In this document: piece by piece, positions 2,887-47,100 of the stretch | How the letters are laid out: each line of letters begins with the position of its first letter | How positions within the stretch are numbered: position 1 is the stretch's first letter | From: Patescibacteria group bacterium | Lineage (GTDB): Bacteria; Patescibacteriota; Patescibacteriia; 2-01-FULL-39-33 | Direction of reading: 5' to 3' | Assembly (NCBI GenBank): GCA_041649575.1 | Contig: JBAZMW010000002.1 | Coordinates: 78,159-142,158, forward strand | DNA: 64,000 nucleotides | Notes under the pieces: generated by a model | Databases searched by the model: none | What the model saw: the letters and a program-made list of their open reading frames with translations, nothing else | What the model was told of the DNA's origin: nothing | Program-made: the position numbers and the translations under genes

Positions 2887-3864
2887 ATGCTAGACCAAAA
2901 TATTAAAAAGTTTTTGGCTAAACTCTCGCAGTCGTTTCTTTTGTTCGCCCCGCAACCGTTGGGGAGTGTTGTTAAAATAAAGCCAGTTGCAGAGATTGGC
3001 AATATCGACTGGTCGGGCGCTATGCCGCTCAACTCCTGGAAAGAAATTTTTTTACCAGCCAGAGAAAGATTATTCGACCTAAAGAAAAATTCTTTTTTTG
3101 AGTCCAAGACGGATTATCCGGCTACCGCCTGCATTGGCATTAATGTTTTGGATTTAAAGGCCTTTACTTTATTTGAACAGGTGTTCGGCCGCGATGCTTA
3201 TTATCAACAGCGGCGTCGCAATCTGTTGCTTGTCGGCTACAGCGCCCAGTGGCCCAATGATTACAAAAAATACAAAGTTTTCAGTCATAACTGGGAAGAA
3301 GATATTTTAGAGCATCTGGTTTTTGATATTTTTATAATTCAACTGAAGAACGATAAAACCAAGATTTACTCCGGTTCAGAGAAAGGGCAATTGATTCTAG
3401 AAAAATACGGCCTGAAAAATTACACGCATTTGGAATTTGCCGGCGCTGTCAAAGAGCAAGGCCCGGATAAAAAAATGTTGGAGCTCAAGGAAAAGCTGGC
3501 TAAGGCCTCCAGCCACAAACTCTGGAACGAACTTGATAAAATTTGCCTGGCCTGCGGTAAATGCTCGATCGCTTGCCCCACTTGTTTTTGTTTTGATTTA
3601 TTTGATAAAGTCGACCCCGATAAGAATTGTCGCGAGCGTTATTGGGGCAATTGTTTTTATAACGATTTTTCCAAGGTGGCCGGCGGTTTTAAAGAGCTAG
3701 ACACAGTCAAAAAGAAGATTTATTTTTGGTATACCCACAAATTTGTCCGCATTCCGCACGAATATTCTCTGCCCGGTTGTGTCGGTTGCGGCCGTTGCAC
3801 TCGTGTTTGTCCGGTGGGAATTGATATTGCCAAAAACGTTTCTATTATCGGTAAAATCAGATAG
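2887..3864 (+). CDS. [NiFe]-hydrogenase group 3b (sulfhydrogenase-type) beta subunit, 4Fe-4S ferredoxin domain protein (HydB/AsrA-like)
   Basis: C-terminal CxxCxxCxxxCP-type motifs (CLACGKCSIACPTCFCFD; CVGCGRCTRVCPVG). Followed 6 nt later by the gamma subunit. Confidence 0.7.
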   Translation: MLDQNIKKFLAKLSQSFLLFAPQPLGSVVKIKPVAEIGNIDWSGAMPLNSWKEIFLPARERLFDLKKNSFFESKTDYPATACIGINVLDLKAFTLFEQVFGRDAYYQQRRRNLLLVGYSAQWPNDYKKYKVFSHNWEEDILEHLVFDIFIIQLKNDKTKIYSGSEKGQLILEKYGLKNYTHLEFAGAVKEQGPDKKMLELKEKLAKASSHKLWNELDKICLACGKCSIACPTCFCFDLFDKVDPDKNCRERYWGNCFYNDFSKVAGGFKELDTVKKKIYFWYTHKFVRIPHEYSLPGCVGCGRCTRVCPVGIDIAKNVSIIGKIR

Positions 3865-3869
3865 TTTCA

Positions 3870-4691
3870 ATGAACAATATTTACCAAGCTCAACCAGCCA
3901 AAATAATCAGTGTCGTTCAAGAATCTTTAGACACCAGGTTTTTTCGCTTGACCTTTGTCAACAAAAAATTACAAAAGGAGCTGGCTTTTCTGCCGGGCCA
4001 ATTCGTGCAAATCGGTTTGCCGGGCTGGGGCGAGTGTCCTATTAGCATCTGTTCTTCCCCCTCCAACGCCAATAAATTCTTTGAGTTAGCCATCAGAAAC
4101 GTCGGTACGCTGACTAATGAGCTTAGTCGGTTGAAAGCCGGGGAAATAGTGTTTATCCGCGGGCCATACGGCAACGGTTTTGATATCGATTTTTCCAAAG
4201 ATAAGCCGCTAGTGATAATCGGCGGTGGTTGCGGTTTTGTGCCACTAAGGCCACTGATTCAGGATTTTTTGGCTGGCCGTTTGTCTAGTTCCAGCCTGCA
4301 GATATTTTATGGCTGCCTCAATGAAAAAACCCTGTTGTTTAGAAAAGAATATCATCTTTGGAATCGCCGCGCCGAACTCAACATTATTTTGGAAAAGCCG
4401 TCCAGAGAATGGAAGGGCAAAAAAGGCCTGATTACAGATCTGCTGGCCCAAAAAAAGATTTCGGCCAGCTCGGTGGCTGTTCTGGTGGGCCCGCCAGTGA
4501 TGTACAGGTTTGTCATCAAGGAACTCAAAAAAAGAAATCTGAAAGATGAAAATATTTATTTGTCGCTGGAGCGGAAAATGTATTGCGGCACTGGTGTTTG
4601 CCAGCATTGTGCCATTGGCCCGTATTATGTCTGTAAAGATGGCCCGGTTTTCTCTTGGAGCCAGCTGAAAGGTTTGCCTCAAGCGATTTAA
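3870..4691 (+). CDS. [NiFe]-hydrogenase group 3b gamma subunit (FAD/NAD(P)-binding oxidoreductase with C-terminal 2Fe-2S cluster, HydG/AsrB-like)
   Basis: Ferredoxin-NADP reductase-like fold motifs (RxFS-type FAD site, GGGCG NAD site) and C-terminal CGTGVCQHCAIG Fe-S motif. Confidence 0.7.
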   Translation: MNNIYQAQPAKIISVVQESLDTRFFRLTFVNKKLQKELAFLPGQFVQIGLPGWGECPISICSSPSNANKFFELAIRNVGTLTNELSRLKAGEIVFIRGPYGNGFDIDFSKDKPLVIIGGGCGFVPLRPLIQDFLAGRLSSSSLQIFYGCLNEKTLLFRKEYHLWNRRAELNIILEKPSREWKGKKGLITDLLAQKKISASSVAVLVGPPVMYRFVIKELKKRNLKDENIYLSLERKMYCGTGVCQHCAIGPYYVCKDGPVFSWSQLKGLPQAI

Positions 4692-4694
4692 TTT

Positions 4695-5207
4695 ATGCTG
4701 TTAACGGTTTTGTTCTTAATAATTATGGTGATTCTTGGCTCTGCCGCCGTTGCCGGTTTGTCTGCTGCTCCTTGGGTGCCAATGAGGAAAGCGGATGTGA
4801 TACGAGCCGTGGAATTAGCTGAAGTGAAAGCCGGTGACAGGGTTTACGATTTGGGTTGTGGTGACGGTCGGTTGGTTTTTGCCGCCAGTGGTCGCGGTGC
4901 CAAAGCGATTGGCTTGGAAATTTCCTTATTGCCTTTTGTTATTGCCAAAATCAGAAGCTGGTTTCAGCCGCTGACCAGGGTGTCATTTAAAAGTTTTTTC
5001 AGACAGAATTTGGAAGATGCCGATGTGGTTTTCGTTTTTTTGATGAAAAAGATTTATCCGAAACTGGCGACAAAACTAACCAAAGAATTGAAGCCGGGAG
5101 CCAGAATCGTGGTTTACTGCTGGCCGATTGATGAATTAAAAAGCAGTCTGATTGAAAAAAATAAGCCAACCGAAAAAGATTTGCCGCTCTATCTTTATCA
5201 AATTTAA
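4695..5207 (+). CDS. Membrane-anchored class I SAM-dependent methyltransferase (paralogue of 50615..51163)
   Basis: N-terminal TM helix, then motif I DLGCGDGR. Aligns along its length with the 50615 ORF (GDxxYDLGCG...G.E....EADVVF.YL...P.ARVVV). Confidence 0.6.
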   Translation: MLLTVLFLIIMVILGSAAVAGLSAAPWVPMRKADVIRAVELAEVKAGDRVYDLGCGDGRLVFAASGRGAKAIGLEISLLPFVIAKIRSWFQPLTRVSFKSFFRQNLEDADVVFVFLMKKIYPKLATKLTKELKPGARIVVYCWPIDELKSSLIEKNKPTEKDLPLYLYQI

Positions 5208-5224: not shown

Positions 5225-5365
5225 ATGTTTGGAGTCGCCCTCATTATCGTCGGAGCCATTTTTCTGCTCAAAGGTCTGGGCCTGTTATCCATGTTCCAAT
5301 GGGACTTGATCTGGCCAGTCGTTTTAATTGTCATTGGTATCTTGATGGTTTTCAAAAGGAGGTAG
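5225..5365 (+). CDS. Small hydrophobic protein (46 aa, two predicted TM helices), not in the supplied ORF track
   Basis: ATG at 5225; translation MFGVALIIVGAIFLLKGLGLLSMFQWDLIWPVVLIVIGILMVFKRR, stop at 5363-5365. Fills the gap between flanking genes. Confidence 0.3.
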   Translation: MFGVALIIVGAIFLLKGLGLLSMFQWDLIWPVVLIVIGILMVFKRR

Positions 5366-5395: not shown

Positions 5396-6676
5396 ATGTG
5401 CCTCACTCTGCCGGCCAAAGTTGTTAAAGTCAAAGGGTTACAAGCCGAGATTTTAGCCAGTGGCGCAAAACAAGTGGTGAAAATAGGCACTGCCGCTAAA
5501 ATTAGAGCGGGGGATTGGGTGCTTTATACCAATAATTTTTTAATAAAAAAAATCAGTCAGACTGAAGCCGAAGAAATTTCCGCCTTGCTTGGTTCCTATC
5601 AAGGCGTTACCGAAGCTAAACTAGAAAAAAAATTAAAGGACATTCTAACGGCCTCGTCCGTTCGCGATCTAAACGTCGAAGAGATTGAATATCTTTTGGG
5701 AGTTGATGGTCAAATTTCACAGGCAGCTCTTTTTTCACAGGCCAATGTGGCCAGAAAAGCCAATATCAAAGATCATATCTGTATCCATGGCATTATTGAG
5801 TTTTCCAACCACTGTCAAAACGATTGTCTTTATTGCGGCCTAAGGAGAAGTAATGACAAAGTTAGCCGTTACCGCCTGTCGCCGGAAAAAATAATCAAAA
5901 TAGCAGTGGCTGCTGTCAATAATCGCGGTTACAAGATTCTGGTCTTGCAATCGGGCGAAGACGATTATTATAGCGATGGTAAAATAGAATTAATTATAAA
6001 AGAAATAAAAAAACAGGCCAGAGTTTTCATTTATTTAAGTATTGGTGACAGAAGTGAAGCGGCTTACAAAAAATTCAAAGTTGCCGGCGCCAGCGGTGTC
6101 CTATACCGTTTTGAAACTTCCAACCCCGATATCTATGTCAGCCTGCACCCCGGCGACTCTCTGGAAAAAAGATTGGAAAATTTAGAAATGATGAGAAATC
6201 TGGGTTATGCGCTTTCCTCCGGGCCACTCATTGGCTTGCCAGCTCAAACATTAAAAGATTTGGCCAGTGATATAACACTAATGAAAAAGCTGGGTGTGTT
6301 TATGCCCTCAATGGGGCCGTTAATTCCTTCAGCCGAGACGCCGTTGGCCGGTGAAAAAAAGATTGATTTTGGCTTAGTTTTAAAAATGATTGCTGCCAGC
6401 CGTTTGGTTATGCCCAAAGCCAGAATTCCCGTTACTACTGCCATGGAGACTTTGGCGCGAGGCGAGGGAATAAGTATCGATGAAGCTAGACAGAAATGTT
6501 TTATGGCCGGCGCTAATTCCGTAATGTTGAATCTGACTCCTGAAACCCAACGGCAGAAATATTATATTTATGAAAACAAATTTTTTGATGTCGAAAAGAA
6601 ATATGAGAATTGGGGGTTGTTTAAGGGAGAATTGAGTTATCGGATGTTGGAAGAAGAGTTACGGGTCAGTATTTAA
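5396..6676 (+). CDS. Fusion protein: N-terminal HypC/HybG-like hydrogenase maturation domain plus BioB/HydE/ThiH-family radical SAM domain
   Basis: First ~75 aa MCLTLPAKVVKV...GDWVLYTNNFLIKKISQTEAEEISALL match the HypC pattern (MC[LI]x[IVL]P, GDWVLVH...EA). Downstream, IEFSNHCQNDCLYCGLRRSN has a CX3CX2C radical SAM motif closely resembling the HydE/ThiH signature. Single uninterrupted ORF. Confidence 0.65.
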   Translation: MCLTLPAKVVKVKGLQAEILASGAKQVVKIGTAAKIRAGDWVLYTNNFLIKKISQTEAEEISALLGSYQGVTEAKLEKKLKDILTASSVRDLNVEEIEYLLGVDGQISQAALFSQANVARKANIKDHICIHGIIEFSNHCQNDCLYCGLRRSNDKVSRYRLSPEKIIKIAVAAVNNRGYKILVLQSGEDDYYSDGKIELIIKEIKKQARVFIYLSIGDRSEAAYKKFKVAGASGVLYRFETSNPDIYVSLHPGDSLEKRLENLEMMRNLGYALSSGPLIGLPAQTLKDLASDITLMKKLGVFMPSMGPLIPSAETPLAGEKKIDFGLVLKMIAASRLVMPKARIPVTTAMETLARGEGISIDEARQKCFMAGANSVMLNLTPETQRQKYYIYENKFFDVEKKYENWGLFKGELSYRMLEEELRVSI

Positions 6677-7961: not shown

Positions 7962-8792
7962 TTGATTACTAATTACATGGCCAAGGCAAAAAAACCACGA
8001 TTAGCAATTATCGGCCTGACATCTTGTGAGGGCTGCCAGTTTTCCATGCTCGACAAAGGCCGGAGATTCTTGGGTTTAATGAAAAATTTTCAGGTAAAGG
8101 AATTTCGTCTAGTGGAGGATGAAAAAATGCTCGAAGAGAATTTTGACCTGTGTTTGGTTGAGGGCAACCCCGTCACCAAAGAAAACATTAGATTGCTCAA
8201 AGAAATGCGGCGGCGGTCGAAATTGTTAGTAGTTATTGGTAATTGCGCGGCTTTGGGTGGTGTCTGGGAGCTCAAAAATTATCAGAATAAGAAAAAGACC
8301 ATCAGGCAGGTTTATAAAAAAATAAAAGTAGCCAATCCTGACATTAAGGAAGTGGATAATTTTGTTAAAGTTGACTTTACCATCCCCGGTTGTCCCATAG
8401 ACGGTGAGGAGTTTATGGAGCTGGCCTATCAGCTTTTAAGTGGCCGGATTCCGAAAATCCCTCAGAATCCTGTTTGCCATGAATGTCAAACAAGAGGTTA
8501 TGAGTGTTTACTGCAGCAAGGAGAGATTTGTCTCGGGCCGATTACTCTGGGTGGTTGTCGGGCAGTGTGCCTCAAAAGCCGGCAGGCCTGCTGGGGTTGC
8601 CGTGGATTGTTTGAGGGCGCGCGAGTGGAAAATTTAATGAAGGAACTGCTGTCAAAATTTCCTCGCGAACAGGTTTATCGGGTGATGGAGGTGTTTGGAG
8701 CGAGAGATAGTATTTTGAAGGAGTTGGAACAGGAAGAAAAGCCAGCTGAAATTAAAAATGTAAAACTAAAAGTTAAAAATTCTAAAAAATAA
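7962..8792 (+). CDS. [NiFe]-hydrogenase group 3b small (delta) subunit
   Basis: N-terminal LAIIGLTSCEGCQFS Fe-S motif of NiFe small subunits / NuoB-like fold; further Cys clusters (GCPIDG, CHECQ, CLGPITLGGC). Confidence 0.7.
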   Translation: MITNYMAKAKKPRLAIIGLTSCEGCQFSMLDKGRRFLGLMKNFQVKEFRLVEDEKMLEENFDLCLVEGNPVTKENIRLLKEMRRRSKLLVVIGNCAALGGVWELKNYQNKKKTIRQVYKKIKVANPDIKEVDNFVKVDFTIPGCPIDGEEFMELAYQLLSGRIPKIPQNPVCHECQTRGYECLLQQGEICLGPITLGGCRAVCLKSRQACWGCRGLFEGARVENLMKELLSKFPREQVYRVMEVFGARDSILKELEQEEKPAEIKNVKLKVKNSKK

Positions 8793-9141: not shown

Positions 9142-10173
9142 TTGAGTTTTATGTCATTATCTAAAGCGGAGGCTAAAATTCTGCAGTCAATTATTGTGTC
9201 TTCAGAAAATAATCCCAGTCGACCAGAATTTCCGGCCGATGATCCTAAATTTCCCGCCACCCCAACTTATAAAATTAAAGTGCCAGGCTTTTCTAATGTT
9301 TGGCTCAAAGATGAAAGCCATAATCCCACCGGAACCCATAAAGATCGGATGGCTTGGGAAATAATTGTTACTTATCGTGATTTTTTATTGACCCAAAAAC
9401 GAGGGCAAATTAAAGGTATTCTACCGGCCGTGTCAATTATTTCCTCTGGATCGGCGGCTGTCGCCATCCAAACACAACTACGGAAATATCATTTGCCAAA
9501 TCTCAAAGTTTTAGTCGACTCTTATCTTAATCAGGAAATTGTAAATTCACTCAAAAAAATTGGCTGTAGAATTTATAAAACTGATTTAAGCAAAAAACCA
9601 TTTCATTGGAAGGAAATTTTAGAGTTGACTCATAATCCAAATGGTTTTGATATTACTTCTAATGAGGCTTTAGACCCGGCTATGAGATTTTATGACTGGC
9701 TAAGTTATGAGATAATTAATAATTCACCAGACTATTGTTTTATTCCTTTCGGTACCGGCAATCTTTATGAGAATATTTTGAATATTAATAAAAAAGAAGT
9801 TTCAACTAAAAATCATGACCCTCGATTCAAGGGTAAGGTTGAAATTCTTAGGAATTGTAATTTTTTTGGCGTGACGACAAATAATCCAAGATCCCGAGCC
9901 GAAAAACTTTATTCGCCTCACTTGCCTTTTGTCCATTACGATGAGCAGTGGATTAGGCTGTATCGGCATGCCGGTTATTGTGGTCCAAAATCAAATGTTT
10001 ATTTATTGAAGGAGCAATATCTTAATGAGGCAATGAAAATTGCCGTTGCTCAAAAGATAAATTATGAGCCTTCTGGTATCTCTGGACTGGCCTTGCTTCT
10101 ACAAATAAAAAATAAACTTCCTAAAAATAAGAAGATTTTAGTTATTAATACTGGGAAAACTAAATATATTTAG
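9142..10173 (+). CDS. PLP-dependent enzyme, fold type II (threonine synthase / TrpB-like superfamily), divergent
   Basis: LKDESHNPTGTHKDRMAW matches the K-x-E-x-x-NPTGSFKDR PLP-lysine motif. Gly-rich SSGSAAVA, FGTGN and C-terminal EPSGISGLA are consistent with ThrC/CysK-like folds. Confidence 0.5.
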   Translation: MSFMSLSKAEAKILQSIIVSSENNPSRPEFPADDPKFPATPTYKIKVPGFSNVWLKDESHNPTGTHKDRMAWEIIVTYRDFLLTQKRGQIKGILPAVSIISSGSAAVAIQTQLRKYHLPNLKVLVDSYLNQEIVNSLKKIGCRIYKTDLSKKPFHWKEILELTHNPNGFDITSNEALDPAMRFYDWLSYEIINNSPDYCFIPFGTGNLYENILNINKKEVSTKNHDPRFKGKVEILRNCNFFGVTTNNPRSRAEKLYSPHLPFVHYDEQWIRLYRHAGYCGPKSNVYLLKEQYLNEAMKIAVAQKINYEPSGISGLALLLQIKNKLPKNKKILVINTGKTKYI

Positions 10174-10221: not shown

Positions 10222-11520
10222 ATGCGTATCCAAATAAATCACATTGGTAAAATGGAAGGCCACACGGACTTCGTGGCCGAGATTTTGAAAGGTGATGTCA
10301 AATCAGCCAAACTGATGACCACCGAAGGTGCTCGTCTGATAGAGGGCATTTTGGTCGGCCGTAATTTTTACGAGGCGCCGATTATCACTTCTCGCATCTG
10401 TGGTATCTGCCCGGTGGTTCATAAAATTTCCTCCATTAGGGCGCTGGAGAACGCTTTAGCTATTAAGCCCAGTGAACAGACAATTAAATTAAGAAAACTA
10501 ATGCTGATGGCGCAAACCATTCATAGCCACGCCTTACATTTGTTTTTTTTGTCTTTGCCGGATTTTTTCAACCTATTGGACGACTTTAAATTTATTGCCA
10601 ACCATAAAAAAGAAACTGATTGCGCTATTAAGGTGCGTGAGTGGGCTTTGAAAGTTATTGAAACTGTTGGCGGACGGGCGGTACATCCGATTGCTTGTGA
10701 AGTTGGTGGCTTTAAGGTTTTGCCCGACAAAAAAGAATTGAAAGATTTGGCTGATCAATACGAAAACATTCTAAAACAGGCACTGTGTCTGGTGAATCTG
10801 ACTATCAAAATAAAATTTCCCAAATTTAGCCGGCCCACGACCTTCATTTCTTTGACCAATGAAAAAGAATACGCCTTTTATGATGGCGATATTAAAATTT
10901 TAAATAAAAATGGCCAGACAAGGATTATTAAGGCCAAAGATTTTACCAAGAATATTAAGGAGATCGAAGAGCCCTATCGCGCCGCCAAATCGGCTGAGTT
11001 AAAGGGTGAGCCGTTTATGGTCGGCGCTTTGGCGCGACTAAATAACAATCATAGCCAATTGAATCACTTGGCCAAGGGAATTCAAAAAGGTTTAAAATGG
11101 AAGTTCCCGCAGTATAATTCTTTTGAAAATATTACCGCCCAGGCTATTGAAATCGTCCATTGTCTAGAGGAAGCCAAAAAATTACTTGACGATTTAGTTA
11201 AAAATTTGAAAAATGAGACCAGTCAGGCCGAGAAGCTCGGCTTAATTGGTCAGGCCAATCCCTTGGGACGTGAGACAAGTGGCTGTGACGCCAGCGAGGC
11301 GCCGCGTGGCACCTTGTATCATTATTACGCCATTGATAAAGACGGCTATATCAAGGATTGTCAGATTATCACGCCGACGGTGTCTTTTTTAAAAAATTTG
11401 GAAGCAGATATTATTGCCTATATCCCGGATTTGAAAAAAATGTCGCCCGAAAAATGTTCACGCAAAATCCGCGCCCTTATTCGCGCCTATGATCCTTGTA
11501 TTAGTTGCGCCACACATTAA
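10222..11520 (+). CDS. [NiFe]-hydrogenase group 3b large (alpha) catalytic subunit; ends exactly at the C-terminal His of the DPCxxCxxH motif
   Basis: N-terminal Ni-binding motif RICGICPVVH and C-terminal DPCISCATH followed directly by a stop codon. Confidence 0.85.
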   Translation: MRIQINHIGKMEGHTDFVAEILKGDVKSAKLMTTEGARLIEGILVGRNFYEAPIITSRICGICPVVHKISSIRALENALAIKPSEQTIKLRKLMLMAQTIHSHALHLFFLSLPDFFNLLDDFKFIANHKKETDCAIKVREWALKVIETVGGRAVHPIACEVGGFKVLPDKKELKDLADQYENILKQALCLVNLTIKIKFPKFSRPTTFISLTNEKEYAFYDGDIKILNKNGQTRIIKAKDFTKNIKEIEEPYRAAKSAELKGEPFMVGALARLNNNHSQLNHLAKGIQKGLKWKFPQYNSFENITAQAIEIVHCLEEAKKLLDDLVKNLKNETSQAEKLGLIGQANPLGRETSGCDASEAPRGTLYHYYAIDKDGYIKDCQIITPTVSFLKNLEADIIAYIPDLKKMSPEKCSRKIRALIRAYDPCISCATH

Positions 11521-11558: not shown

Positions 11559-11915
11559 ATGGCATTTAGATTCGAAAGTTTGGAGATTTGGAAAGAGGCG
11601 ATTAATTTTTCTAGTTCTACTTATAAAATTACTCGTCAGTTTCCCAAAGAAGAACTGTTTAGTTTATCTAGTCAGTTAAATCGGGCTGCGATTTCTATTT
11701 CGGCTAATATAGCCGAGGGCTCGGCAAGTGATAGTGTAAAAGAGTTTAGAATGTTTCTGAATATTTCCATTAGATCTGGCGTCGAAGTAATATCTGAATT
11801 ATTTATAGCTAAAGAAAGAAGCTATTTATCAGACGAAGAATTCGGCGAGTTATACAATACTGGAGAATTATTAATAAGAAGAATTTCCTCATTTCGCAAT
11901 CAATTAAAATTATAA
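11559..11915 (+). CDS. Four-helix-bundle protein (23S rRNA intervening-sequence protein family, TIGR02436/PF05635-like)
   Basis: Signature SSQLNRAAISISANIAEGSA; 118 aa. Family is common in CPR genomes. Confidence 0.75.
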   Translation: MAFRFESLEIWKEAINFSSSTYKITRQFPKEELFSLSSQLNRAAISISANIAEGSASDSVKEFRMFLNISIRSGVEVISELFIAKERSYLSDEEFGELYNTGELLIRRISSFRNQLKL

Positions 11916-11938: not shown

Positions 11939-12193
11939 ATGCACGATTTCCACTTAGCCGACATAATCTATAAAACAATTTTAGATTACGCCCAAAAAAA
12001 TAATTTGAAAAAAATCACCAAAGCGGTGATTGATTTGGGACAGATTATTGAGCATGGTGAGGAGGTGTTGGCGGAAAATTTGGATTTTAATATCAAAATG
12101 TTGGCCCAAGGTGGCCTGGCCGAAGGCTTAGAGCTGGTTATTAACAAAACAGCCGGTGATAGCTGGGTGCTAAAGGAAATAGAAGGAGTATAA
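11939..12193 (+). CDS. HypA-like hydrogenase nickel-incorporation protein lacking the C-terminal zinc-finger domain
   Basis: N-terminus MHDFHL (the MHE Ni-binding motif of HypA) and core similarity to HypA. Protein stops where the CxxC...CxxC Zn domain normally begins. Confidence 0.5.
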   Translation: MHDFHLADIIYKTILDYAQKNNLKKITKAVIDLGQIIEHGEEVLAENLDFNIKMLAQGGLAEGLELVINKTAGDSWVLKEIEGV

Positions 12194-16772: not shown

Positions 16773-18341
16773 ATGGCAGTTAATAAACCAAAACAATCTA
16801 AAAAAGTGATTTTATTAATTTTAGACGGCTGGGGGATTGGCAAAAATGACGCCTCCAATCCGATTTTTTTGGTCCGGCCGAAATTCATCAATTCGCTTTA
16901 TAAGAAATACCCTCACACCCAGATTTGCGCCTCTGGCCGTTGTGCCGGGCTGCCGCCGGATCAAGTAGGTAATTCCGAGGCTGGGCACATGAACTTGGGT
17001 GCCGGACGAGTGGTCGACCAGGATGCTGTCAAAATTTCCAAACAAATAAATACCGGTGAATTTTTCAAAAACCCGGCTTTTTTGGCGGCGTTTAGCCACG
17101 TCAGAAAAAATAATTCCGCCCTGCACTTGATAGGCATGCTTTCTAACGGGCAGAGTCCGCACAGCGATCCCGATCATCTTTTGGCCCTGTTGACCATGAC
17201 GCGGAAATATAAGGTCAAAAGGATTTATCTGCATTTATTCACCGACGGACGCGATAGCCCGCAACATTCCAGTCTGAAGTCAATAATGGCCTTGGAGCGA
17301 TCTTTGAAACCTAATGAAATAATCGCCACTGTCATTGGCCGTTTTTATGCCATGGACCGCAAAAAATCATGGGACCGCACGGTGCGCTCTTATAACGCCA
17401 TGACCGCCGATCACAGCGAACATCGCGCCAATAGCCCGCAGGCCGGAATCATGCGCGCCTATAACGCCAACATTACCGATGAGTTCATAGAGCCGATTGT
17501 TATTTATCGAAAAGGAAAAATAATCAGAAGAATAAGTGACGATGACGCGATTATTTTTTTTAATTTGCGCAGCGACCGCGCCCGTCAGCTGGCCAAGCCT
17601 TTTGTCCAGCATGATTTCGAAGCAGCCAATCCCGGCTCGGAAAAATTTCCCCGCAAAGAAATCCTAAAAAATATAGTTTTTGTCGCCATGACCGATTTTG
17701 GCCCCGATTTAGATAATATCTTGACCGCCTACCCCTCCGAAGATTTAAAAAATACTTTGCCTTTTGTTTTAAAAAACAAGAAGCAGGTTTATATTGCCGA
17801 GAGCGAGAAATACGCCCACGTCACTTTCTTTTTTAATGGCGGTTATGCCGATCCGGTTGCCGGGGAAAAAAGGATAAACGTTCCTTCGCCCCGAGTCAGG
17901 TCTTATGATGCGGCTCCGGCGATGTCGACCGCGGCCATTACCAAAAAAGTTATCTCCAGCCTCAAGAGTTACGATTTTATTTGCGCCAATTTTGCGTGTC
18001 CGGATATGATTGGCCATACCGGCAATCTGCTGGCGGCCAAGCAAACAGTCAAAGCGGTTGACGGCTATCTAAAAAAGGTGGTTTCCGCTTGCCTGAAACA
18101 GCAGGCAACCTTGATCATTACAGCCGATCATGGTAATATAGAGTACATGCGCAATCTTGATACCGACGAAGTTGTTACCGAGCATACCACCAATCCGGTG
18201 CCCTTTATTGTTATCAATAAAAATTTTAACAGAAACAGTCATTTGAAAAAGGGCGGATTTTTGGGTAATGTGGCGCCTACGATTCTAAAATTACTTGGCA
18301 TCAAAAAGCCAAAAGAAATGACCAAAGACAGCCTGATTTAA
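16773..18341 (+). CDS. gpmI: 2,3-bisphosphoglycerate-independent phosphoglycerate mutase, copy 1
   Basis: LILDGWG, GNSEAGH (phospho-Ser site), GRFYAMDRD, PDMIGHTG, TADHGN motifs. Confidence 0.9.
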   Translation: MAVNKPKQSKKVILLILDGWGIGKNDASNPIFLVRPKFINSLYKKYPHTQICASGRCAGLPPDQVGNSEAGHMNLGAGRVVDQDAVKISKQINTGEFFKNPAFLAAFSHVRKNNSALHLIGMLSNGQSPHSDPDHLLALLTMTRKYKVKRIYLHLFTDGRDSPQHSSLKSIMALERSLKPNEIIATVIGRFYAMDRKKSWDRTVRSYNAMTADHSEHRANSPQAGIMRAYNANITDEFIEPIVIYRKGKIIRRISDDDAIIFFNLRSDRARQLAKPFVQHDFEAANPGSEKFPRKEILKNIVFVAMTDFGPDLDNILTAYPSEDLKNTLPFVLKNKKQVYIAESEKYAHVTFFFNGGYADPVAGEKRINVPSPRVRSYDAAPAMSTAAITKKVISSLKSYDFICANFACPDMIGHTGNLLAAKQTVKAVDGYLKKVVSACLKQQATLIITADHGNIEYMRNLDTDEVVTEHTTNPVPFIVINKNFNRNSHLKKGGFLGNVAPTILKLLGIKKPKEMTKDSLI

Positions 18342-18353: not shown

Positions 18354-19949
18354 ATGTCTGACATAAATAACAATACTCGCCCCAAGCCGGTGGTTTTGAT
18401 AATTCTCGACGGTTGGGGAGTGGCGCCGGCCTCGCGAGCCAATGCCATTTCTCTGGCCAAAACGCCAGCCATTAACAATCTAATCAAGACTTATCCGGCC
18501 ATGACGCTTCAGGCTTCTGGCGAGGCAGTGGGCTTGTCGTGGGGAGAAATAGGAAATTCCGAGGTTGGCCATCTTAATCTCGGTTCCGGGAAATTAATTT
18601 ATCAAAATTTGCCGCGAATCAACAAGGCTATTACCGATGGCTCCTTTTTCAAAAATGACAAATTTTTGGCAGCAGTAAAATCCGCCAAAGACAAAGGCGC
18701 CGCTCTTCATTTGATGGGCTTGGCTTCTTCCGGCGGCGTCCATAGCTCCATCGACCATCTGTTTGCTTTAATGGAACTTTGTGCCAAGGAAAAACTCAAA
18801 GAGGTTTTTATTCATGTTTTTCTGGATGGTCGCGACATGCCTTACAATTCCGGCATTGATTTTATTAATAAGATTCAACAGAAAATCGCCGAGTATAAAA
18901 TTGGCCAGATTGCTTCTATTTCCGGCCGTTTTTATGCCATGGATCGCGATAATCACTGGGAGCGCATAATTTTGGCCTATAACGCCATGGTGAAGGGAGA
19001 GGCGGAAAATAAATTTACTGATCCGCTAAAGGCCGTTCAATCATCTTATGACAAAAAAATTTATGATGAAGAGTTTGTCCCGACGGTTATCATCAAGAAT
19101 AATTCTCCGGTGGGCACCATTAAGGCCGGTGATTCAGTAATTTTTTTCAATTTTAGAAGCGACCGCGCTCGAGAAATCACCAAAGCTTTTGTTCTGCCAG
19201 GTTTTGAGAAGTTTCCTCGCCAGTATCTCAAAGATTTGTATTTTGTATCTATGACCGAGTATGAAAAAGAGTTGCCGGTAGAAGTCGCTTTCCCACCGGA
19301 AAATATCACCGAGCCGCTAGCCAAAGTGATTGCCGCCGCCGGTCTGAAACAGCTTCATATTGCCGAAACCGAAAAATACGCCCACGTCACTTTCTTTTTT
19401 AATGGCGGCCTGGAGGAGCAATTTACCGGCGAAGAACGCATCTTGGTCCCTTCGCCGCGCGTGGCTTCTTATGCTCAGAAGCCAGAGATGTCTGCCAAGG
19501 AGGTGACCAAAAAAATAGTTAAGGAAATCATGGATGATAAATACGATTTTATAGTGATTAATTTTGCCAACGGCGATATGGTTAGCCACACCGGTGACCT
19601 GAAGGCCACCATTAAAGCCTGCGAGGTGATTGATGGTTGTGTTAAGCAAATAGTCGAAGTAGTTTTAGCCAAAAATGGAGCGGCTTTTATTACAGCCGAC
19701 CATGGCAATGCCGAGGAGCTGGTTAATTTGCAATCGGGCGAAATCGACAAAGAGCACAGCACTTATCCGGTGCCTTTTATTATTATCGGCAAGCAGTGGG
19801 AAGGCAAAACTGCCGGTTTGTCCGAGGTGCCTAATTCCGATTTAAGCTTGGTTCAGCCGTCGGGCATCCTTTCCGATGTCGCTCCGACGATTCTTAAGGT
19901 GATGAATTTGGAGAAACCAGAGGCAATGACCGGTCGCAGCCTGCTTTAA
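18354..19949 (+). CDS. gpmI: 2,3-bisphosphoglycerate-independent phosphoglycerate mutase, copy 2 (tandem paralogue)
   Basis: Same motif set (LIILDGWG, GNSEVGH, GRFYAMDRD, GDMVSHTG, TADHGN). Roughly 40% identical to copy 1 by eye. Confidence 0.9.
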   Translation: MSDINNNTRPKPVVLIILDGWGVAPASRANAISLAKTPAINNLIKTYPAMTLQASGEAVGLSWGEIGNSEVGHLNLGSGKLIYQNLPRINKAITDGSFFKNDKFLAAVKSAKDKGAALHLMGLASSGGVHSSIDHLFALMELCAKEKLKEVFIHVFLDGRDMPYNSGIDFINKIQQKIAEYKIGQIASISGRFYAMDRDNHWERIILAYNAMVKGEAENKFTDPLKAVQSSYDKKIYDEEFVPTVIIKNNSPVGTIKAGDSVIFFNFRSDRAREITKAFVLPGFEKFPRQYLKDLYFVSMTEYEKELPVEVAFPPENITEPLAKVIAAAGLKQLHIAETEKYAHVTFFFNGGLEEQFTGEERILVPSPRVASYAQKPEMSAKEVTKKIVKEIMDDKYDFIVINFANGDMVSHTGDLKATIKACEVIDGCVKQIVEVVLAKNGAAFITADHGNAEELVNLQSGEIDKEHSTYPVPFIIIGKQWEGKTAGLSEVPNSDLSLVQPSGILSDVAPTILKVMNLEKPEAMTGRSLL

Positions 19950-25356: not shown

Positions 25357-26364
25357 ATGTTTTTAAGAAGGATTGGCATCGATTTGGGCACCACCAATGT
25401 TTTAGTGCATGTGCCCAAAAAGGGAGTGGTTATTAATGAGCCTTCGGTAGTGGCTATTTCTACTATTGATAAAAAAATTATTGCGGTTGGGGTTGAGGCC
25501 AAAGAAATGTTAGGCCGGACTCCCGATACCATTATTGCTCAAAAACCCCTTAAAGACGGGGTTATCGCCGATTATAAAACTACCGAGGCCATGCTTAGAT
25601 ATTTTATTAATAAAGCCCTGGGTGGTGTGAGGTTGTTTCGGCCAGAAGTGATGGTGGCAGTGCCGGCCGGTATTACTTCCACCGAACGTCGCGCGGTTAT
25701 TGACGCTACTATTGCCGCCGGCGCTAAAGCCGCTTACATTATAAAAGAACCGATCGTCGCTGCCATTGGGGCCAATATTCCAATCGGCTCGGCCTCTGGC
25801 CACATGATTATCGATATCGGTGGCGGTACTTCCGAAATCGCCGTGATTTCTCTGGGCGGGATTGTTTCTTCCACCTCGGTTCGTGTTGGCGGCAACAAAT
25901 TTGACGTTGCCATCGCCGAGCACGTACGTCGCAAGTATGGATTGGCTATTGGTGAACGTACGGCCGAGGAAATTAAAATCGGCATCGGTTCGGCCCTGTA
26001 TCTAGAAGAAAAGATGGCCATGGACATCAAGGGGCGGGATATTATTACCGGTTTGCCAAAAACTATCACTGTTTCTTCAGATGATGTCACCGAGGCCATT
26101 CAAAACGAGCTGGACGGCATTATTTTGGCCGTTAAAAGTGTTTTGCATAATACGCCGCCAGAACTCTCCGCCGATGTTATTGACAAGGGAGTGGTGATGT
26201 CCGGCGGCTCTAGTTTGCTGCGCAACATTGATAAATTAATAACCCAGGCTACCGGTGTTTCCGCCTACATTGCCGATGACGCTCTGTTTTGTGTGGCCAA
26301 AGGCACAGGTATCGCCCTGGACAATTTGGAGAGCTATAAAAGATCGATTTTAGCCACAAAATAA
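25357..26364 (+). CDS. mreB: MreB/Mbl actin-like protein (paralogue 1, located in the glycosyltransferase block)
   Basis: [43 protein letters not shown] actin-fold motifs. Confidence 0.85.
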   Translation: MFLRRIGIDLGTTNVLVHVPKKGVVINEPSVVAISTIDKKIIAVGVEAKEMLGRTPDTIIAQKPLKDGVIADYKTTEAMLRYFINKALGGVRLFRPEVMVAVPAGITSTERRAVIDATIAAGAKAAYIIKEPIVAAIGANIPIGSASGHMIIDIGGGTSEIAVISLGGIVSSTSVRVGGNKFDVAIAEHVRRKYGLAIGERTAEEIKIGIGSALYLEEKMAMDIKGRDIITGLPKTITVSSDDVTEAIQNELDGIILAVKSVLHNTPPELSADVIDKGVVMSGGSSLLRNIDKLITQATGVSAYIADDALFCVAKGTGIALDNLESYKRSILATK

Positions 26365-33817: not shown

Positions 33818-34855
33818 ATGTTTAAAAAAATTTTTAGTAAATTTAATAAAGGCCTAGGAGTCGATCTGGGTAGCACCAAGACCATGATTTATCTTCAGGA
33901 TCGCGGTATTGTTGTTAATGAGTCATCGGTAGTGGCGGTTAATAATCGTACCGATCAGATTTTGGCCGTTGGTGACACCGCCCGGCGCATGCTCGGCAAA
34001 ACACCGCCTCATATCATCGCCACCCAGCCGATAGAAAACGGCATTATTTCTGATTTTGAAATAACCGAAAAAATGTTGAAGTATTTTTTTAATAAAATCC
34101 AGGCCGGTAAATTTTTCTTTTCAGTCAAGCCCAGGGTAGTTGTTGGCATACCGCTGGATGTAACCGAAGTCGAAAAGAAAGCGGCCGAAGATGCCATGCT
34201 CTCTGCCGGGGCCGGTGAGGTTTTTTTGGTGGAAAACATTATGGCGGCGGCCATTGGCGCCAGAGTTCCCATTCAGGATCCAACCGGTAATATGGTTGTC
34301 AATTTGGGCGGTGGCTTGACAGAGGTGGCGGTTATCTCTTTGGATGGCATTGTTAATTGGCGAGTCTCCCGGGTAGCCGGGCTGACTTTGGGCAATGATA
34401 TTATTAGATTTGCTAAAGATGAATTTAATTTAGTTTTGGGCGAGATGGTAGCCGAAGATATTAAGAAAAAAATCGGTTCAGCCGTGGAATTAAAGGACCC
34501 CCTGGAAATGCAAATGCGGGGCAGGGATGTGGTTTCCGGTTTGCCCAGAGAAGTGACAATTAATAATATTCAGATTCAGAATGCCATTGGCCGCTCCACT
34601 CAAAATATTCTCGACACTATCAAGGCTACCTTAGAGACCACTCCACCGGAATTGGTGGCCGATATTTACCAGAAAGGTATAATTTTGACCGGTGGTACCG
34701 CCCAGCTTAGGGGATTGGATAAATTTATTTCTCAAGGCATTCGGGTGCCTGTTCATATTGCCGATGACCCCCAGACCTGTGTTGTCAGGGGCATGGGAGC
34801 AATTTTAGACGATGAGCATCTTTTAAAAGATATCGCCATCCCTTCTTCTCAATAG
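33818..34855 (+). CDS. mreB: Rod shape-determining protein MreB (paralogue 2, canonical mreBCD context)
   Basis: GVDLGSTKTMIYL, NLGGGLTEVAVIS, ILTGGTAQLRGLDKFI. Confidence 0.9.
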   Translation: MFKKIFSKFNKGLGVDLGSTKTMIYLQDRGIVVNESSVVAVNNRTDQILAVGDTARRMLGKTPPHIIATQPIENGIISDFEITEKMLKYFFNKIQAGKFFFSVKPRVVVGIPLDVTEVEKKAAEDAMLSAGAGEVFLVENIMAAAIGARVPIQDPTGNMVVNLGGGLTEVAVISLDGIVNWRVSRVAGLTLGNDIIRFAKDEFNLVLGEMVAEDIKKKIGSAVELKDPLEMQMRGRDVVSGLPREVTINNIQIQNAIGRSTQNILDTIKATLETTPPELVADIYQKGIILTGGTAQLRGLDKFISQGIRVPVHIADDPQTCVVRGMGAILDDEHLLKDIAIPSSQ

Positions 34856-47096: not shown

Positions 47097-47100
47097 ATCC

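What the first reader, a model, noticed from the sequence alone, without database searches (positions are those of the whole stretch)
5396..6676. HypC-like domain fused to a HydE/ThiH/BioB-type radical SAM enzyme inside a [NiFe]-hydrogenase cluster
The first ~75 residues (MCLTLPAKVVKV...GDWVLYTNNFLIKKISQTEAEEISALL) carry the hallmark HypC/HybG features: Cys directly after Met1, the MCxxxP start, and the GDWVLVH..EA core. The ORF continues without a stop into a ~350-aa radical SAM domain. Its cluster-binding motif IEFSNHCQNDCLYCGLRRSN is nearly the HydE signature (CxNxCxYCGLRR). HypC normally chaperones the Fe(CN)2CO unit for [NiFe] large subunits. HydE is a [FeFe]-hydrogenase maturase that acts on an Fe-CO-CN-cysteine synthon. 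I know of no described HypC-radical SAM fusion. This window shows no hypB/D/E/F. Together this points to a non-canonical route for building or delivering the Fe(CN)2CO moiety in this reduced-genome lineage.
Basis: partly seen in the sequence, partly recalled or inferred. Interest (0 to 1): 0.85.

Follow-up and report, generated by a model that had tools for sequence, protein, structure and literature searches.

The report
HypC–HydE fusion for [NiFe]-hydrogenase maturation
This gene fuses the iron-delivery chaperone of nickel-iron hydrogenases to a radical enzyme known only from iron-iron hydrogenase assembly, and the way it travels with its partner HydG across many phyla points to an undescribed second route for building the nickel-iron active site.

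Summary
ORF 5396-6676 (+, 426 aa) has a HypC domain (Pfam 50 bits, cut-off 28.5) joined in frame to a HydE-type radical SAM enzyme. The HydE half scores 257 bits on NCBIfam (cut-off 254.6) and is 43% identical to T. maritima HydE. It sits inside a group 3b [NiFe]-hydrogenase operon.

It is not a frameshift artefact: over 100 homologues at 43-64% identity share the architecture.

The main new result concerns relatives. A canonical HydG (570-630 bits, cut-off 312) lies next to the fusion inside the [NiFe] operon, and HypC-HydE-HydG triple fusions exist. Of 117 loci with a fused HydE, 91 have HydG, 71 have a [NiFe] large subunit and none has HydF. Unfused HydE loci carry HydF in 14 of 38 cases.

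Fused HydEs form one clade. They share an invariant Cys129-x-His131 and lack two arginines conserved in canonical HydE. Their HypC domain lacks the canonical histidine.

Best reading: HydG and HypC-HydE build and deliver the Fe-CO/CN unit to [NiFe] hydrogenases, standing in for HypD/E/F and HydF.

Caveats: this window has no hydG, and genome-wide absence of hypDEF could not be tested. Earlier mentions of the fusion are only in passing.

The parts
5396..6676 (+). HypC::HydE fusion gene (426 aa plus stop)
   Evidence: ORF. Pfam and NCBIfam. AF2 model pLDDT 90.3, pTM 0.90.
5396..5590 (+). HypC domain (aa 1-65). Met1-Cys2-x-Thr4-x-Pro6 and Gly39-Asp40-Trp41 are conserved. The canonical His is replaced by Thr45.
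   Evidence: PF01455 50 bits, full profile. Aligns to T. kodakarensis HypC 2z1c, E 8e-8. Cys2 and Pro6 are present in 96/96 fused homologues. Predicted beta strands 2-53 and helix 55-65.
5591..5638 (+). Short linker (aa 66-81) between the HypC domain and the start of the HydE alignment
   Evidence: The TmHydE alignment starts at query residue 82. pLDDT 76-84 here.
5639..6598 (+). HydE-type radical SAM (beta-alpha)8 barrel (aa 82-401)
   Evidence: phmmer to TmHydE: E 2.9e-70, residues 82-401 vs 15-325, 43% identity. Foldseek top hits are TmHydE, E 5e-34, TM 0.85-0.89. TIGR03956 257 bits.
5780..5788 (+). Cys129-Ile-His131, the signature of the fused subfamily (canonical HydE has x-x-Arg here; TmHydE His52/Arg54)
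   Evidence: C129 and H131 are invariant in 96/96 fused sequences. Canonical HydE has Arg at the second position in 115/144.
5813..5836 (+). Radical SAM cluster motif Cys140-x3-Cys144-x2-Cys147
   Evidence: Aligned to TmHydE C63/C67/C70 and invariant in the family.
6302..6304 (+). Met303, equivalent to TmHydE Met224 (binds the Fe(CO)2CN product in crystals)
   Evidence: Alignment, (119/120 conserved). Role taken from PMC10114646 and PMC11826987.
6524..6526 (+). Met377, equivalent to TmHydE Met291 ('backflow valve' methionine)
   Evidence: 119/120 conserved. Role.
6578..6580 (+). Lys395, equivalent to TmHydE Lys309 (proposed radical-relay lysine)
   Evidence: 114/120 conserved. Role.
2887..3864 (+). 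Group 3b hydrogenase beta-like subunit (Fer4_22)
   Evidence: Pfam. Conserved synteny.
3870..4691 (+). Group 3b hydrogenase gamma-like subunit (FAD/NAD-binding, DHODB Fe-S)
   Evidence: Pfam. Synteny as above.
4695..5207 (+). Conserved ~170-aa methyltransferase-like gene between the gamma subunit and the fusion (role unknown)
   Evidence: Pfam and NCBIfam hits are weak. Present at this position in L002-L004, L006, L012, L014.
5225..5365 (+). 46-aa LiaF-like transmembrane ORF immediately upstream of the fusion
   Evidence: Called gene with PF18917/PF22570 in L001-L004 and L006. Sequence.
7962..8792 (+). [NiFe] hydrogenase small (delta) subunit
   Evidence: Oxidored_q6 83 bits. Best NCBIfam hits are sulfhydrogenase delta subunits.
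10222..11520 (+). [NiFe] hydrogenase large subunit, group 3b-like, with RICGIC and DPCISCATH motifs and no C-terminal extension
   Evidence: PF00374 143 bits. Best solved relatives are the T. kodakarensis and P. furiosus cytosolic hydrogenase alpha subunits, E 2e-56, aligned through both Cys pairs. Extension analysis.
11939..12193 (+). Short (84 aa) HypA-like nickel chaperone lacking the zinc domain
   Evidence: PF01155 29.8 bits (cut-off 28.9), profile positions 1-69 of 112. NCBIfam HypA models score below cut-off. Conserved after the large subunit in relatives.

Best explanation
The ORF encodes a two-domain maturase dedicated to the neighbouring [NiFe] hydrogenase. It belongs to a widespread, monophyletic HydE subfamily that is fused at its N-terminus to a HypC chaperone domain.

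Proposed mechanism:
1. HydG cleaves tyrosine and assembles the (Cys)Fe(CO)2(CN) synthon. HydG is encoded next to the fusion in most relatives, but not in this window.
2. The HydE barrel takes up this synthon. The 5'-deoxyadenosyl radical attacks the cysteine sulfur and strips off the cysteine backbone, as in canonical HydE.
3. The resulting Fe-carbonyl-cyanide fragment moves to the lower cavity, past Met377 and Met303. In this subfamily two conserved arginines there are replaced, and an invariant Cys129/His131 pair appears. I propose that this pair holds a single mononuclear Fe unit instead of letting two units dimerise for HydF.
4. The tethered HypC domain takes the Fe unit on its N-terminal Cys2 and inserts it into the apo large subunit.
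5. The short HypA-like protein then supplies nickel. No endopeptidase step is needed here, because the large subunit ends at the motif histidine.

In this scheme the HydE barrel plays the scaffold role of HypD, HydG replaces HypE/HypF and the unknown anaerobic CO source, and HypC replaces HydF.

Shown here: the domain identities, the conserved residues, the gene linkage and the subfamily signature.
Inferred: the chemistry, the hand-over to Cys2, and independence from HypD/E/F.
For: Identity of the two halves.

HydE residues tied to handling of the Fe-CO/CN synthon are kept. Met224, Met291 and Lys309 of TmHydE correspond to Met303, Met377 and Lys395. The radical SAM cysteines and further conserved HydE positions (TmHydE R159, E161, R180, T269, Q107; roles not looked up here) are also kept.

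Conserved position inside the [NiFe] operon: beta, gamma, (methyltransferase-like gene, TM ORF), fusion, small subunit, large subunit, HypA.

HydG next to the fusion:
- Present in L007-L010 and many others, scoring 569-607 bits on TIGR03955 (cut-off 312).
- Matches T. italicus HydG at E 3e-177 over its full length, including the C-terminal CX2CX22C cluster motif.
- HypC-HydE-HydG triple fusions exist: P0242, P0245 and the L039 operon.

Survey of 170 loci:
- Fused HydE (n=117): HydG 91, large subunit 71, small subunit 69, HydF 0.
- Unfused HydE (n=38): HydF 14, large subunit 5.
- Fisher p = 3e-10 for HydF and 2e-7 for the large subunit, not phylogenetically corrected.
- Among 33 fusion-centred loci with at least 8 kb on both sides, 21 have HydG, 25 have the large subunit and only 1 has neither.

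No HypB/D/E/F:
- No such gene cluster recurs in 4 or more of the first 90 loci.
- No signature motif (GFETT, GPGCPVC, C-terminal PRIC, GNLVCP, HypF zinc fingers) occurs in any of the 170 loci.

Subfamily:
- All 92 fused sequences fall in one NJ clade. The 12 apparently unfused members of that clade carry the same Cys-His-Gly/Ala signature wherever those columns are present (one is truncated there). Canonical HydE is x-Arg-Arg.
- The HypC domain keeps Cys2 and Pro6 (96/96) but never has the canonical histidine. This fits a partner other than HypD.
- The HydGs are not specialised; those linked to fusions and those linked to HydF are interspersed in a tree. The adaptation therefore lies in HydE and in the carrier.

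Target enzyme: 70 of 72 associated large subunits keep the DPCxxCxx[H/R] motif.

Model: pTM 0.90 suggests that the two domains pack in a defined way.
Against: - This window has no hydG. Neither do the +-10 kb neighbourhoods of its closest relatives (L001-L004, L006, L011, L014, L040). For this genome the substrate source is assumed to lie elsewhere.
- Whole-genome absence of hypD/E/F was not testable with these tools.
- The HydG synthon carries 2 CO and 1 CN, whereas the [NiFe] site carries 1 CO and 2 CN. The ligand bookkeeping is unexplained.
- Two non-CPR loci (L070, L078) have a true [FeFe] hydrogenase between the fused HydE and HydG.
- A few members of the signature clade have no HypC sequence nearby (L044, L052, L053).
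- That Arg54 and Arg155 (with Thr134) form the 'S3' product site of TmHydE is my recollection of the structural papers. [quoted passage not shown]
- There is no biochemical evidence.
- The loci are not phylogenetically independent.
Confidence: 0.6

Rival explanations
1. Hybrid pathway. HypD/E/F are encoded elsewhere and still make the cyanides and provide the scaffold. HydG plus the fusion supply only the CO ligand (or a pre-carbonylated iron), whose anaerobic source in the canonical pathway is unknown. The HypC domain works as an ordinary HypC.
For: The anaerobic source of CO is an acknowledged open question in [NiFe] maturation (review PMC12134894). Genome-wide hypDEF status is untested. Larger genomes that carry the fusion (Planctomycetota, Omnitrophota) could well hold hyp genes. 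The Legionellales symbiont operon has HypA, HypB, HybD and the fusion.
Against: No hypD/E/F lies in any of 170 neighbourhoods, although hyp genes usually cluster with hydrogenase genes. The HypC histidine is lost in every fused protein. From my own knowledge of the E. coli work, not checked here, that histidine acts together with Cys2 in the HypC-HypD scaffold. HydG makes both CO and CN on one iron, so a CO-only role wastes the cyanide.
Confidence: 0.2
2. In this genome and its HydG-less subclade, the fusion acts on something other than the HydG synthon. Examples would be another Fe-thiolate species, or ligands scavenged from a host. Alternatively it is a relic left after loss of hydG.
For: There is no hydG in 64 kb of window, or within +-10 kb in eight related loci. 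No HydG homologue in the two top-120 lists sits on the 235-kb, 505-kb or 440-kb contigs that carry these fusions.
Against: All catalytic and signature residues are intact and the operon is conserved. Relatives at 55-61% identity (P0007, P0008, P0012, L012, L013) have hydG on the same contig. The homologue lists are truncated at 120 entries, and the contigs cover only part of each genome. HydE and HydG can be far apart on one scaffold.
Confidence: 0.12
3. The HydE half and HydG mature an [FeFe] hydrogenase encoded elsewhere. Their place in the [NiFe] operon reflects co-regulation, and the HypC domain acts independently of the HydE domain.
For: NCBI annotates the protein as the [FeFe] maturase HydE. 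L070 and L078 have an [FeFe] hydrogenase beside the fused HydE and HydG.
Against: HydF is absent from all 117 fused loci but present in 14 of 38 unfused ones. HydA is present in only 2 of 117 fused loci. The fused HydEs are a separate clade with a changed cavity. The covalent link to the [NiFe]-specific chaperone, and the triple fusion with HydG, are conserved across phyla.
Confidence: 0.06
4. Assembly or annotation artefact: two separate genes (hypC and a biotin-synthase-like gene) joined by a missed stop or frameshift.
For: None beyond prior suspicion. JGI calls relatives 'biotin synthase'.
Against: The same single ORF is found in more than 100 independent assemblies at 43-64% identity and in 81 of the first 90 loci I collected, 80 of them from GTDB species genomes. 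BioB scores 89 bits against a cut-off of 225.
Confidence: 0.01

Closest known systems
HydE, the radical SAM maturase of [FeFe] hydrogenases (Thermotoga maritima HydE, PDB 3cix/7o1o; NCBIfam TIGR03956)
   Same: 43% identity over 310 residues and the same (beta-alpha)8 fold (Foldseek E 5e-34). The CX3CX2C motif is kept, as are Met224, Met291 and Lys309, which handle the Fe(CO)2(CN) species. Partnered with HydG in most relatives.
   Different: N-terminal HypC domain. Forms its own clade. Canonical Arg54, Thr134 and Arg155 are replaced by His131, Tyr/Phe213 and Gly234, and there is a new invariant Cys129. No C-terminal auxiliary-cluster cysteines. Never found with HydF. Embedded in [NiFe] rather than [FeFe] hydrogenase operons.
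HypC/HybG/HupF, the Fe(CN)2CO chaperone of [NiFe] hydrogenases (PF01455; T. kodakarensis HypC 2z1c)
   Same: N-terminal Met-Cys-x-x-x-Pro, the GDW core, a predicted beta-barrel plus C-terminal helix of about 65 residues, and a location in a [NiFe] operon.
   Different: Not a free-standing protein. The conserved histidine (E. coli His51) is absent throughout the fused family. No HypD partner is seen nearby. Scores below the NCBIfam TIGR00074 cut-off in this window (34-38 bits against 48).
Canonical HypCDEF pathway for the Fe(CN)2CO unit
   Same: Same presumed end point: an iron carrying CO and CN ligands is loaded on HypC Cys2 and passed to the large subunit. HypA is used for nickel.
   Different: No HypD scaffold. 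No HypE/HypF (cyanide from carbamoyl phosphate) in the window or in 170 neighbourhoods. The ligands would instead come from tyrosine through HydG.
HydEFG pathway for the [2Fe] subcluster, including natural HydE-HydF (algal, from memory) and HydE-HydG fusions (P0276)
   Same: HydG and HydE act in sequence. Gene fusions between pathway members occur.
   Different: The carrier is HypC rather than the GTPase HydF. The target is a [NiFe] large subunit. The product is presumably mononuclear rather than a 2Fe dimer.

Membership tests
HypC/HupF family (PF01455 / TIGR00074) | Profile match above the curated threshold | tested here: inconclusive
   Pfam 50.0 bits against a gathering score of 28.5, covering the full profile. 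NCBIfam TIGR00074 gives 33.9-38.2 bits against a cut-off of 48, so that test is not met. The triple-fusion relative P0242 reaches 50.7 bits.
HypC/HupF family (PF01455 / TIGR00074) | Cysteine directly after the initiator methionine (the Fe-binding Cys2) within MCxxxP | tested here: met
   The sequence starts MCLTLP. Cys2 and Pro6 are present in 96/96 fused homologues.
HypC/HupF family (PF01455 / TIGR00074) | Conserved histidine in the GxWVLVH segment (E. coli His51) | tested here: not met
   Thr45 aligns with T. kodakarensis His45 and E. coli His51. The column is Gln, Thr, Ile, Ala and so on, never His, in 96 fused sequences.
HypC/HupF family (PF01455 / TIGR00074) | Works with HypD as the scaffold complex | not testable with these tools
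   No HypD in the window or in 170 loci. Whole genomes could not be searched.
HydE (TIGR03956) | Equivalog profile score above cut-off, and best match among BioB-like radical SAM families | tested here: met
   257.0 bits against 254.6, so the pass is marginal. The next best family is PylB at 129 bits. The best solved relatives are TmHydE by sequence (E 3e-70) and by fold.
HydE (TIGR03956) | CX3CX2C radical SAM cluster, plus Met224, Met291 and Lys309, which handle the Fe(CO)2(CN) species | tested here: met
   C140/C144/C147, M303, M377 and K395 are conserved in at least 114 of 120 family members.
HydE (TIGR03956) | Conserved arginines and threonine of the lower-cavity (S3) anion or product site (TmHydE Arg54, Thr134, Arg155; the residue identities are from my memory of the structural papers) | tested here: not met
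   These positions are His131, Tyr213 and Gly234 here. Fused family: His 96/96 at 131 and Gly/Ala/Ser 96/96 at 234. Canonical HydE: Arg 115/144 and Arg 106/144.
HydE (TIGR03956) | Genomic partnership with HydG | tested here: inconclusive
   Not met in this window. Met in 91 of 117 loci with fused homologues.
HydE (TIGR03956) | Genomic partnership with HydF and an [FeFe] hydrogenase (HydA) | tested here: not met
   HydF 0/117 and HydA 2/117 in fused loci. HydF 14/38 in unfused loci.
Biotin synthase BioB (TIGR00433) | Equivalog profile score above cut-off | tested here: not met
   88.8 bits against 225. No bio genes found in the window.
PylB (TIGR03910) | Equivalog profile score above cut-off | tested here: not met
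   128.9 bits against 348.2.
Group 3b [NiFe] hydrogenase operon (context) | Large subunit with N-terminal RxCGxC and C-terminal DPCxxCxxH motifs, plus small, beta and gamma subunits | tested here: met
   RICGIC and DPCISCATH are present. The best solved relatives are T. kodakarensis and P. furiosus group 3b alpha subunits. The best NCBIfam hits are sulfhydrogenase alpha and delta subunits, below their equivalog cut-offs.

The most novel reading that the evidence does not exclude
In CPR bacteria, DPANN archaea, Omnitrophota, anammox Planctomycetota and others, the Fe-CO/CN half of the [NiFe] active site is built entirely by radical SAM chemistry from tyrosine. The route runs HydG, then the HypC-fused HydE, then the large subunit, with no HypD, HypE, HypF or carbamoyl phosphate. 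That would be a second, independent biosynthetic route to the [NiFe] cofactor, and a direct evolutionary bridge between [FeFe] and [NiFe] hydrogenase maturation. It might even give a different ligand set, Fe(CO)2(CN), in these enzymes.
Probability: 0.45. Interest if true: 0.95.

Novelty: new variant of a known kind. Interest (0 to 1): 0.86.

Why it matters
Current reviews state that six Hyp proteins (A-F) are needed to make the NiFe(CN)2CO cofactor anaerobically, and that the anaerobic source of its CO ligand is unknown (PMC12134894). HydE and HydG are regarded as [FeFe]-specific.

A conserved, cross-phylum module would change that picture. In it HydG and a HypC-tethered HydE sit inside [NiFe] operons, with no HydF and no HypD/E/F nearby. 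This would:
1. Give a concrete, testable candidate for an alternative [NiFe] maturation pathway.
2. Offer a minimal gene set (HydG, HypC-HydE, a short HypA) for heterologous production of [NiFe] hydrogenases.
3. Link the evolution of the two hydrogenase maturation systems.
4. Provide a natural HydE variant that probably stops at a mononuclear Fe(CO)x(CN)y product, which would help dissect the HydE mechanism.
5. Correct a widespread annotation. These genes are labelled '[FeFe] hydrogenase maturase HydE' or 'biotin synthase', which wrongly implies [FeFe] hydrogenases or biotin synthesis in these genomes.

Tried and rejected
- Frameshift or missed-stop artefact: rejected by conservation of the single ORF in over 100 assemblies.
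- Biotin synthase, PylB, ThiH or HmdB identity: rejected by NCBIfam scores far below the cut-offs and by the PDB and fold ranking.
- Looked for hydG in the window by tblastn with three CPR HydGs. The only hit was the fusion's own radical SAM domain.
- Looked for a HydG on the window's own 235-kb contig, or on the 505-kb and 440-kb contigs of its closest relatives, by matching contig lengths in two HydG homologue lists. None was found, but the lists are capped at 120 entries.
- A metagenome scan with CPR HydGs did not hit the JGI contigs that carry P0016 or P0101.
- Tested whether the HydGs linked to fused HydE form their own clade. They do not.
- Literature: ten full-text searches for HypC, HydE, HydG, CPR and related terms. 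They gave one passing mention in a 2026 preprint and one in Jaffe 2020. The two primary TmHydE structure papers were not held, so the residues of the S3 site could not be confirmed. Supplements of two papers gave nothing on hyp genes.
- Whole-genome presence of hypD/E/F could not be tested.
- The AF2 model gives confidence and secondary structure but no coordinates. The distance between Cys2 and Cys129/His131 could therefore not be measured.
Full report
**1. The observation**

The ORF at 5396-6676 (+) is exactly as described: 426 codons, an ATG start and no internal stop.
- Pfam places a full-length HupF_HypC domain on residues 1-65 (50.0 bits, gathering score 28.5). Radical_SAM covers 134-292 and BATS covers 309-379.
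- NCBIfam ranks HydE (TIGR03956) first at 257 bits, just above its 254.6 cut-off. It is far ahead of PylB (129/348), BioB (89/225), ThiH, HmdB and HydG.
- By sequence, the best solved relative of residues 82-401 is Thermotoga maritima HydE (E 3e-70, 43% identity). Residues 1-62 match Thermococcus kodakarensis HypC.
- An AlphaFold2 model built on 55 homologues is confident (pLDDT 90.3, pTM 0.90). Its best Foldseek matches are the TmHydE crystal structures (E 5e-34, TM 0.85-0.89), then PylB.
The HypC 'core' reads GDWVLYT, so the canonical histidine (E. coli His51, T. kodakarensis His45) is Thr45.

**2. Not an artefact**

A search of 5.8 billion proteins returned 120 best hits at 43-100% identity. 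119 of them carry both the HypC and the radical SAM Pfam domains in one protein of about 416-435 aa. NCBI names them '[FeFe] hydrogenase H-cluster radical SAM maturase HydE'; JGI names them 'biotin synthase'.

**3. Context in the window**

The fusion sits between the diaphorase half and the catalytic half of a group 3b [NiFe] hydrogenase:
- beta subunit, 2887-3864
- gamma subunit, 3870-4691
- a methyltransferase-like gene, 4695-5207
- a 46-aa membrane ORF, 5225-5365
- the fusion
- small subunit, 7962-8792
- large subunit, 10222-11520
- an 84-aa HypA-like gene, 11939-12193

The large subunit has both cysteine pairs (RICGIC and DPCISCATH) and ends at the motif histidine. The gene order is conserved in relatives. 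Pfam scans of the plausible gene-sized ORFs in the 64 kb show only housekeeping functions. There is no hypB/D/E/F and no hydF/G/A.

**4. The key new finding: HydG**

In more distant members of the family, a second radical SAM gene of 454-459 aa lies directly after the fusion and before the small-subunit gene (L007-L010).
- It is a canonical HydG. It scores 569-607 bits on TIGR03955 (cut-off 312) and matches Thermoanaerobacter italicus HydG at E 3e-177 from end to end. The match includes the C-terminal CX2CX22C motif of the auxiliary cluster, where the Fe(CO)2(CN)(Cys) synthon is made.
- A relative 61% identical to the window's protein (P0008) has the order beta, gamma, small gene, fusion, 543-aa unknown, HydG, small subunit, large subunit, HypA.
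- Single polypeptides that combine HypC, HydE and HydG exist: P0242 (881 aa) and P0245 (906 aa). One such triple fusion sits inside a beta-gamma-X-small-large-HypA operon (L039).

**5. Survey**

I collected two sets of loci:
- 80 loci from a scan of one genome per GTDB species, using the fusion as query
- 80 loci from a metagenome scan, using CPR HydG as query

I called ORFs, clustered them and labelled them by BLAST against references. The references were checked with Pfam: HycI, Rex, HydF and a true [FeFe] hydrogenase.

| Feature within the locus | Fused HydE (n=117) | Unfused HydE only (n=38) |
|---|---|---|
| HydG | 91 | 35 |
| [NiFe] large subunit | 71 | 5 |
| [NiFe] small subunit | 69 | 4 |
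| Short HypA | 25 | 0 |
| HycI-type endopeptidase | 24 | 0 |
| HydF | 0 | 14 |
| [FeFe] hydrogenase (HydA) | 2 | 1 |

- Fisher p = 3e-10 for HydF and 2e-7 for the large subunit. These values are illustrative only, because the loci are related.
- Among 33 fusion-centred loci with at least 8 kb on both sides, 21 have HydG, 25 have a large subunit, 14 have both and 1 has neither.
- No HypB/D/E/F-like cluster recurs, and none of their signature motifs occurs in any locus.
- The fusion also accompanies Mrp/Mbh-type group 4 [NiFe] clusters.
- Record titles show the architecture well beyond the CPR: Nano-, Woese- and Micrarchaeota, Omnitrophota, Planctomycetota (including Scalindua and Brocadiaceae), Elusimicrobia, Margulisiibacteriota/Saganbacteria, WOR-1, Spirochaetes and others.
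- As a consistency check on the targets, 70 of 72 associated large subunits keep DPCxxCxx[H/R]. All 22 in loci with a HycI protease have a C-terminal extension of 7-37 residues. 35 of 48 without a protease end at the motif, as the window's does.

**6. A distinct HydE subfamily**

I aligned 96 fused sequences with 144 unfused HydE representatives.
- The fused proteins keep the residues that handle the iron species in TmHydE. Met224, Met291 and Lys309 correspond here to Met303, Met377 and Lys395 (roles from PMC10114646 and PMC11826987).
- They differ at three positions that line the lower half of the barrel. Cys129 and His131 are invariant (96/96), and residue 234 is Gly, Ala or Ser (96/96). Canonical HydE has x-Arg-Arg at these positions (TmHydE His52, Arg54, Arg155).
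- In an NJ tree of the barrel core, all 92 fused sequences fall in one clade of 104. The 12 'unfused' members carry the same signature wherever those columns are present (one is truncated there). At least two of them have a HypC-coding segment just upstream.
- As I recall the TmHydE structural papers, Arg54, Thr134 and Arg155 form the 'S3' site, where thiocyanate and the Fe(CO)2(CN) product bind. [quoted passage not shown]
- The HypC domain comes in two flavours: MCLTIPAK...GDWVL, and MCYAIPGK...GDYVYAQGG. Both keep Cys2 and Pro6, and neither has the histidine.
- The HydGs show no such split. Those linked to fusions and those linked to HydF are interspersed in a tree.

**7. Mechanism**

Established chemistry: HydG uses two tyrosines to build (kappa3-Cys)Fe(CO)2(CN) on its dangler iron, and a second cyanide helps release it. 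HydE attacks the cysteine sulfur with the 5'-deoxyadenosyl radical, removes the cysteine backbone and yields an Fe(I)(CO)2(CN)S species. [quoted passage not shown]

My proposal is that the fused enzymes run the same first steps. In their lower cavity the two arginines have given way to a Cys/His pair, and I propose that this pair holds a single iron unit. The tethered HypC then takes the unit on Cys2 and carries it to the large subunit. In effect the barrel bottom would do HypD's job, HydG would do the job of HypE/F and supply the CO, and HypC would do HydF's job.

- Shown here: domain identity, residue conservation, gene linkage, mutual exclusion with HydF, and the subfamily signature.
- Inferred: substrate, product nuclearity, transfer to Cys2, and independence from HypD/E/F.

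**8. Caveats**

- The window has no hydG, and neither do the +-10 kb neighbourhoods of its eight closest loci. Relatives at 55-61% identity do have it on the same contig.
- On one 799-kb CPR scaffold, HydE and HydG appear to lie about 170 kb apart. A distal hydG is therefore plausible here but unproven.
- Genome-wide absence of hypD/E/F could not be tested.
- The synthon carries 2 CO and 1 CN, while the [NiFe] site has 1 CO and 2 CN.
- Two non-CPR loci have a genuine [FeFe] hydrogenase between the fused HydE and HydG.

**9. Literature**

Ten full-text searches found no description of a HydG/HydE route to [NiFe] hydrogenases.
- Jaffe et al. 2020 noted a protein family 'with homology to hypC' next to both CPR hydrogenase types.
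[quoted passage not shown] It gives no further comment and does not mention HydG or HypD/E/F.
- A 2025 review of [NiFe] cofactor biosynthesis does not mention radical SAM enzymes and lists the anaerobic CO source as unresolved.
- The 2024 survey of archaeal hydrogenases treats HydE/F/G purely as [FeFe] maturases.
- Subscription journals are largely outside the library, so prior work there cannot be excluded.

**10. Verdict**

The object is a member of a large, cross-phylum and essentially uncharacterised subfamily, mis-annotated as an [FeFe] maturase or as biotin synthase. I rate it a new variant of known kinds (HydE plus HypC). If the pathway-level reading holds, the significance is high.

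Noticed in passing
window 9142-10173 (+): A PLP-dependent (PALP) enzyme is inserted between the small- and large-subunit genes. It is found only in this genome among the relatives examined. Matches to threonine synthase, CysM and SbnA are weak and far below cut-off. A link to cysteine or serine supply for HydG/HydE chemistry is conceivable but untested.
   Followed up: partly
window 10222-11520 (+); loci L001-L170: The large subunit ends exactly at the histidine of DPCISCATH. Across the loci, large subunits with a HycI protease nearby always have a C-terminal extension of 7-37 aa (22/22). Most of those without a protease have none (35/48). The CPR-type enzymes seem to have dropped the proteolytic maturation step.
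   Followed up: yes
window 11939-12193 (+): The HypA-like protein is only 84 aa. It covers profile positions 1-69 of 112, starts MHD, and lacks the zinc-finger domain. It is conserved after the large subunit in many relatives. No HypB was seen anywhere in CPR loci.
   Followed up: partly
window 4695-5207 (+) and 5225-5365 (+): A ~170-aa methyltransferase-like gene and a 46-aa LiaF-like membrane ORF lie between the gamma subunit and the fusion in most loci of the window's clade. The methyltransferase-like gene gives a weak archaeal protein-lysine N-methyltransferase hit (63 bits, cut-off 200). A second copy of the methyltransferase-like gene follows the large subunit in L003, L006 and L040. Role unknown.
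   Followed up: partly
window 11559-11915 (+); also L008, and the P0008 contig: A 23S rRNA intervening-sequence protein family gene (PF05635, 107 bits) is wedged between the large subunit and HypA. The same family recurs inside other hydrogenase operons of this group.
   Followed up: no
P0242 (881 aa), P0245 (906 aa), L039:10001-~12650: Single polypeptides combine HypC, HydE and HydG. P0276 (803 aa) is HydE plus HydG without HypC.
   Followed up: yes
L070:16099-17865 and L078:9712-11490: A genuine [FeFe] hydrogenase (Fe_hyd_lg_C 338 bits; L1 motif TSCSPGW) lies between a fused HypC-HydE and HydG, next to a [NiFe] operon and a Rex repressor, with no HydF in the locus. In these organisms one HydG may serve two hydrogenase types.
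   Followed up: partly
L005 (P0101, 233-kb contig): Here the fusion is not near any hydrogenase or HydG. It sits beside RecO, RuvX and the ribosomal protein operon, flanked by unknown 220-aa and 109-aa genes.
   Followed up: no
L044, L052, L053: These are HydE genes of the Cys-His-Gly signature clade with no HypC-like coding sequence detectable in the locus. In L044 the gene lies next to a [NiFe] operon and HydG. They are either split systems or fragments.
   Followed up: partly
L010:1488-3119 and the P0008 contig: A 543-aa ORF with no Pfam match sits between the fusion and HydG in one lineage.
   Followed up: no
window 16773-18341 and 18354-19949 (+); 25357-26364 and 33818-34855 (+): There are two tandem paralogues of cofactor-independent phosphoglycerate mutase, and two MreB paralogues, in a genome expected to be small. 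The iPGM pair is conserved downstream of the hydrogenase operon in relatives.
   Followed up: no
window 46170-49157 (+): Two DUF2229 'CoA enzyme activase' genes are followed by a BcrAD/BadFG-type ATPase. This looks like an activator module of the kind used by 2-hydroxyacyl-CoA dehydratases or benzoyl-CoA reductases, but no obvious partner enzyme is in the window.
   Followed up: no
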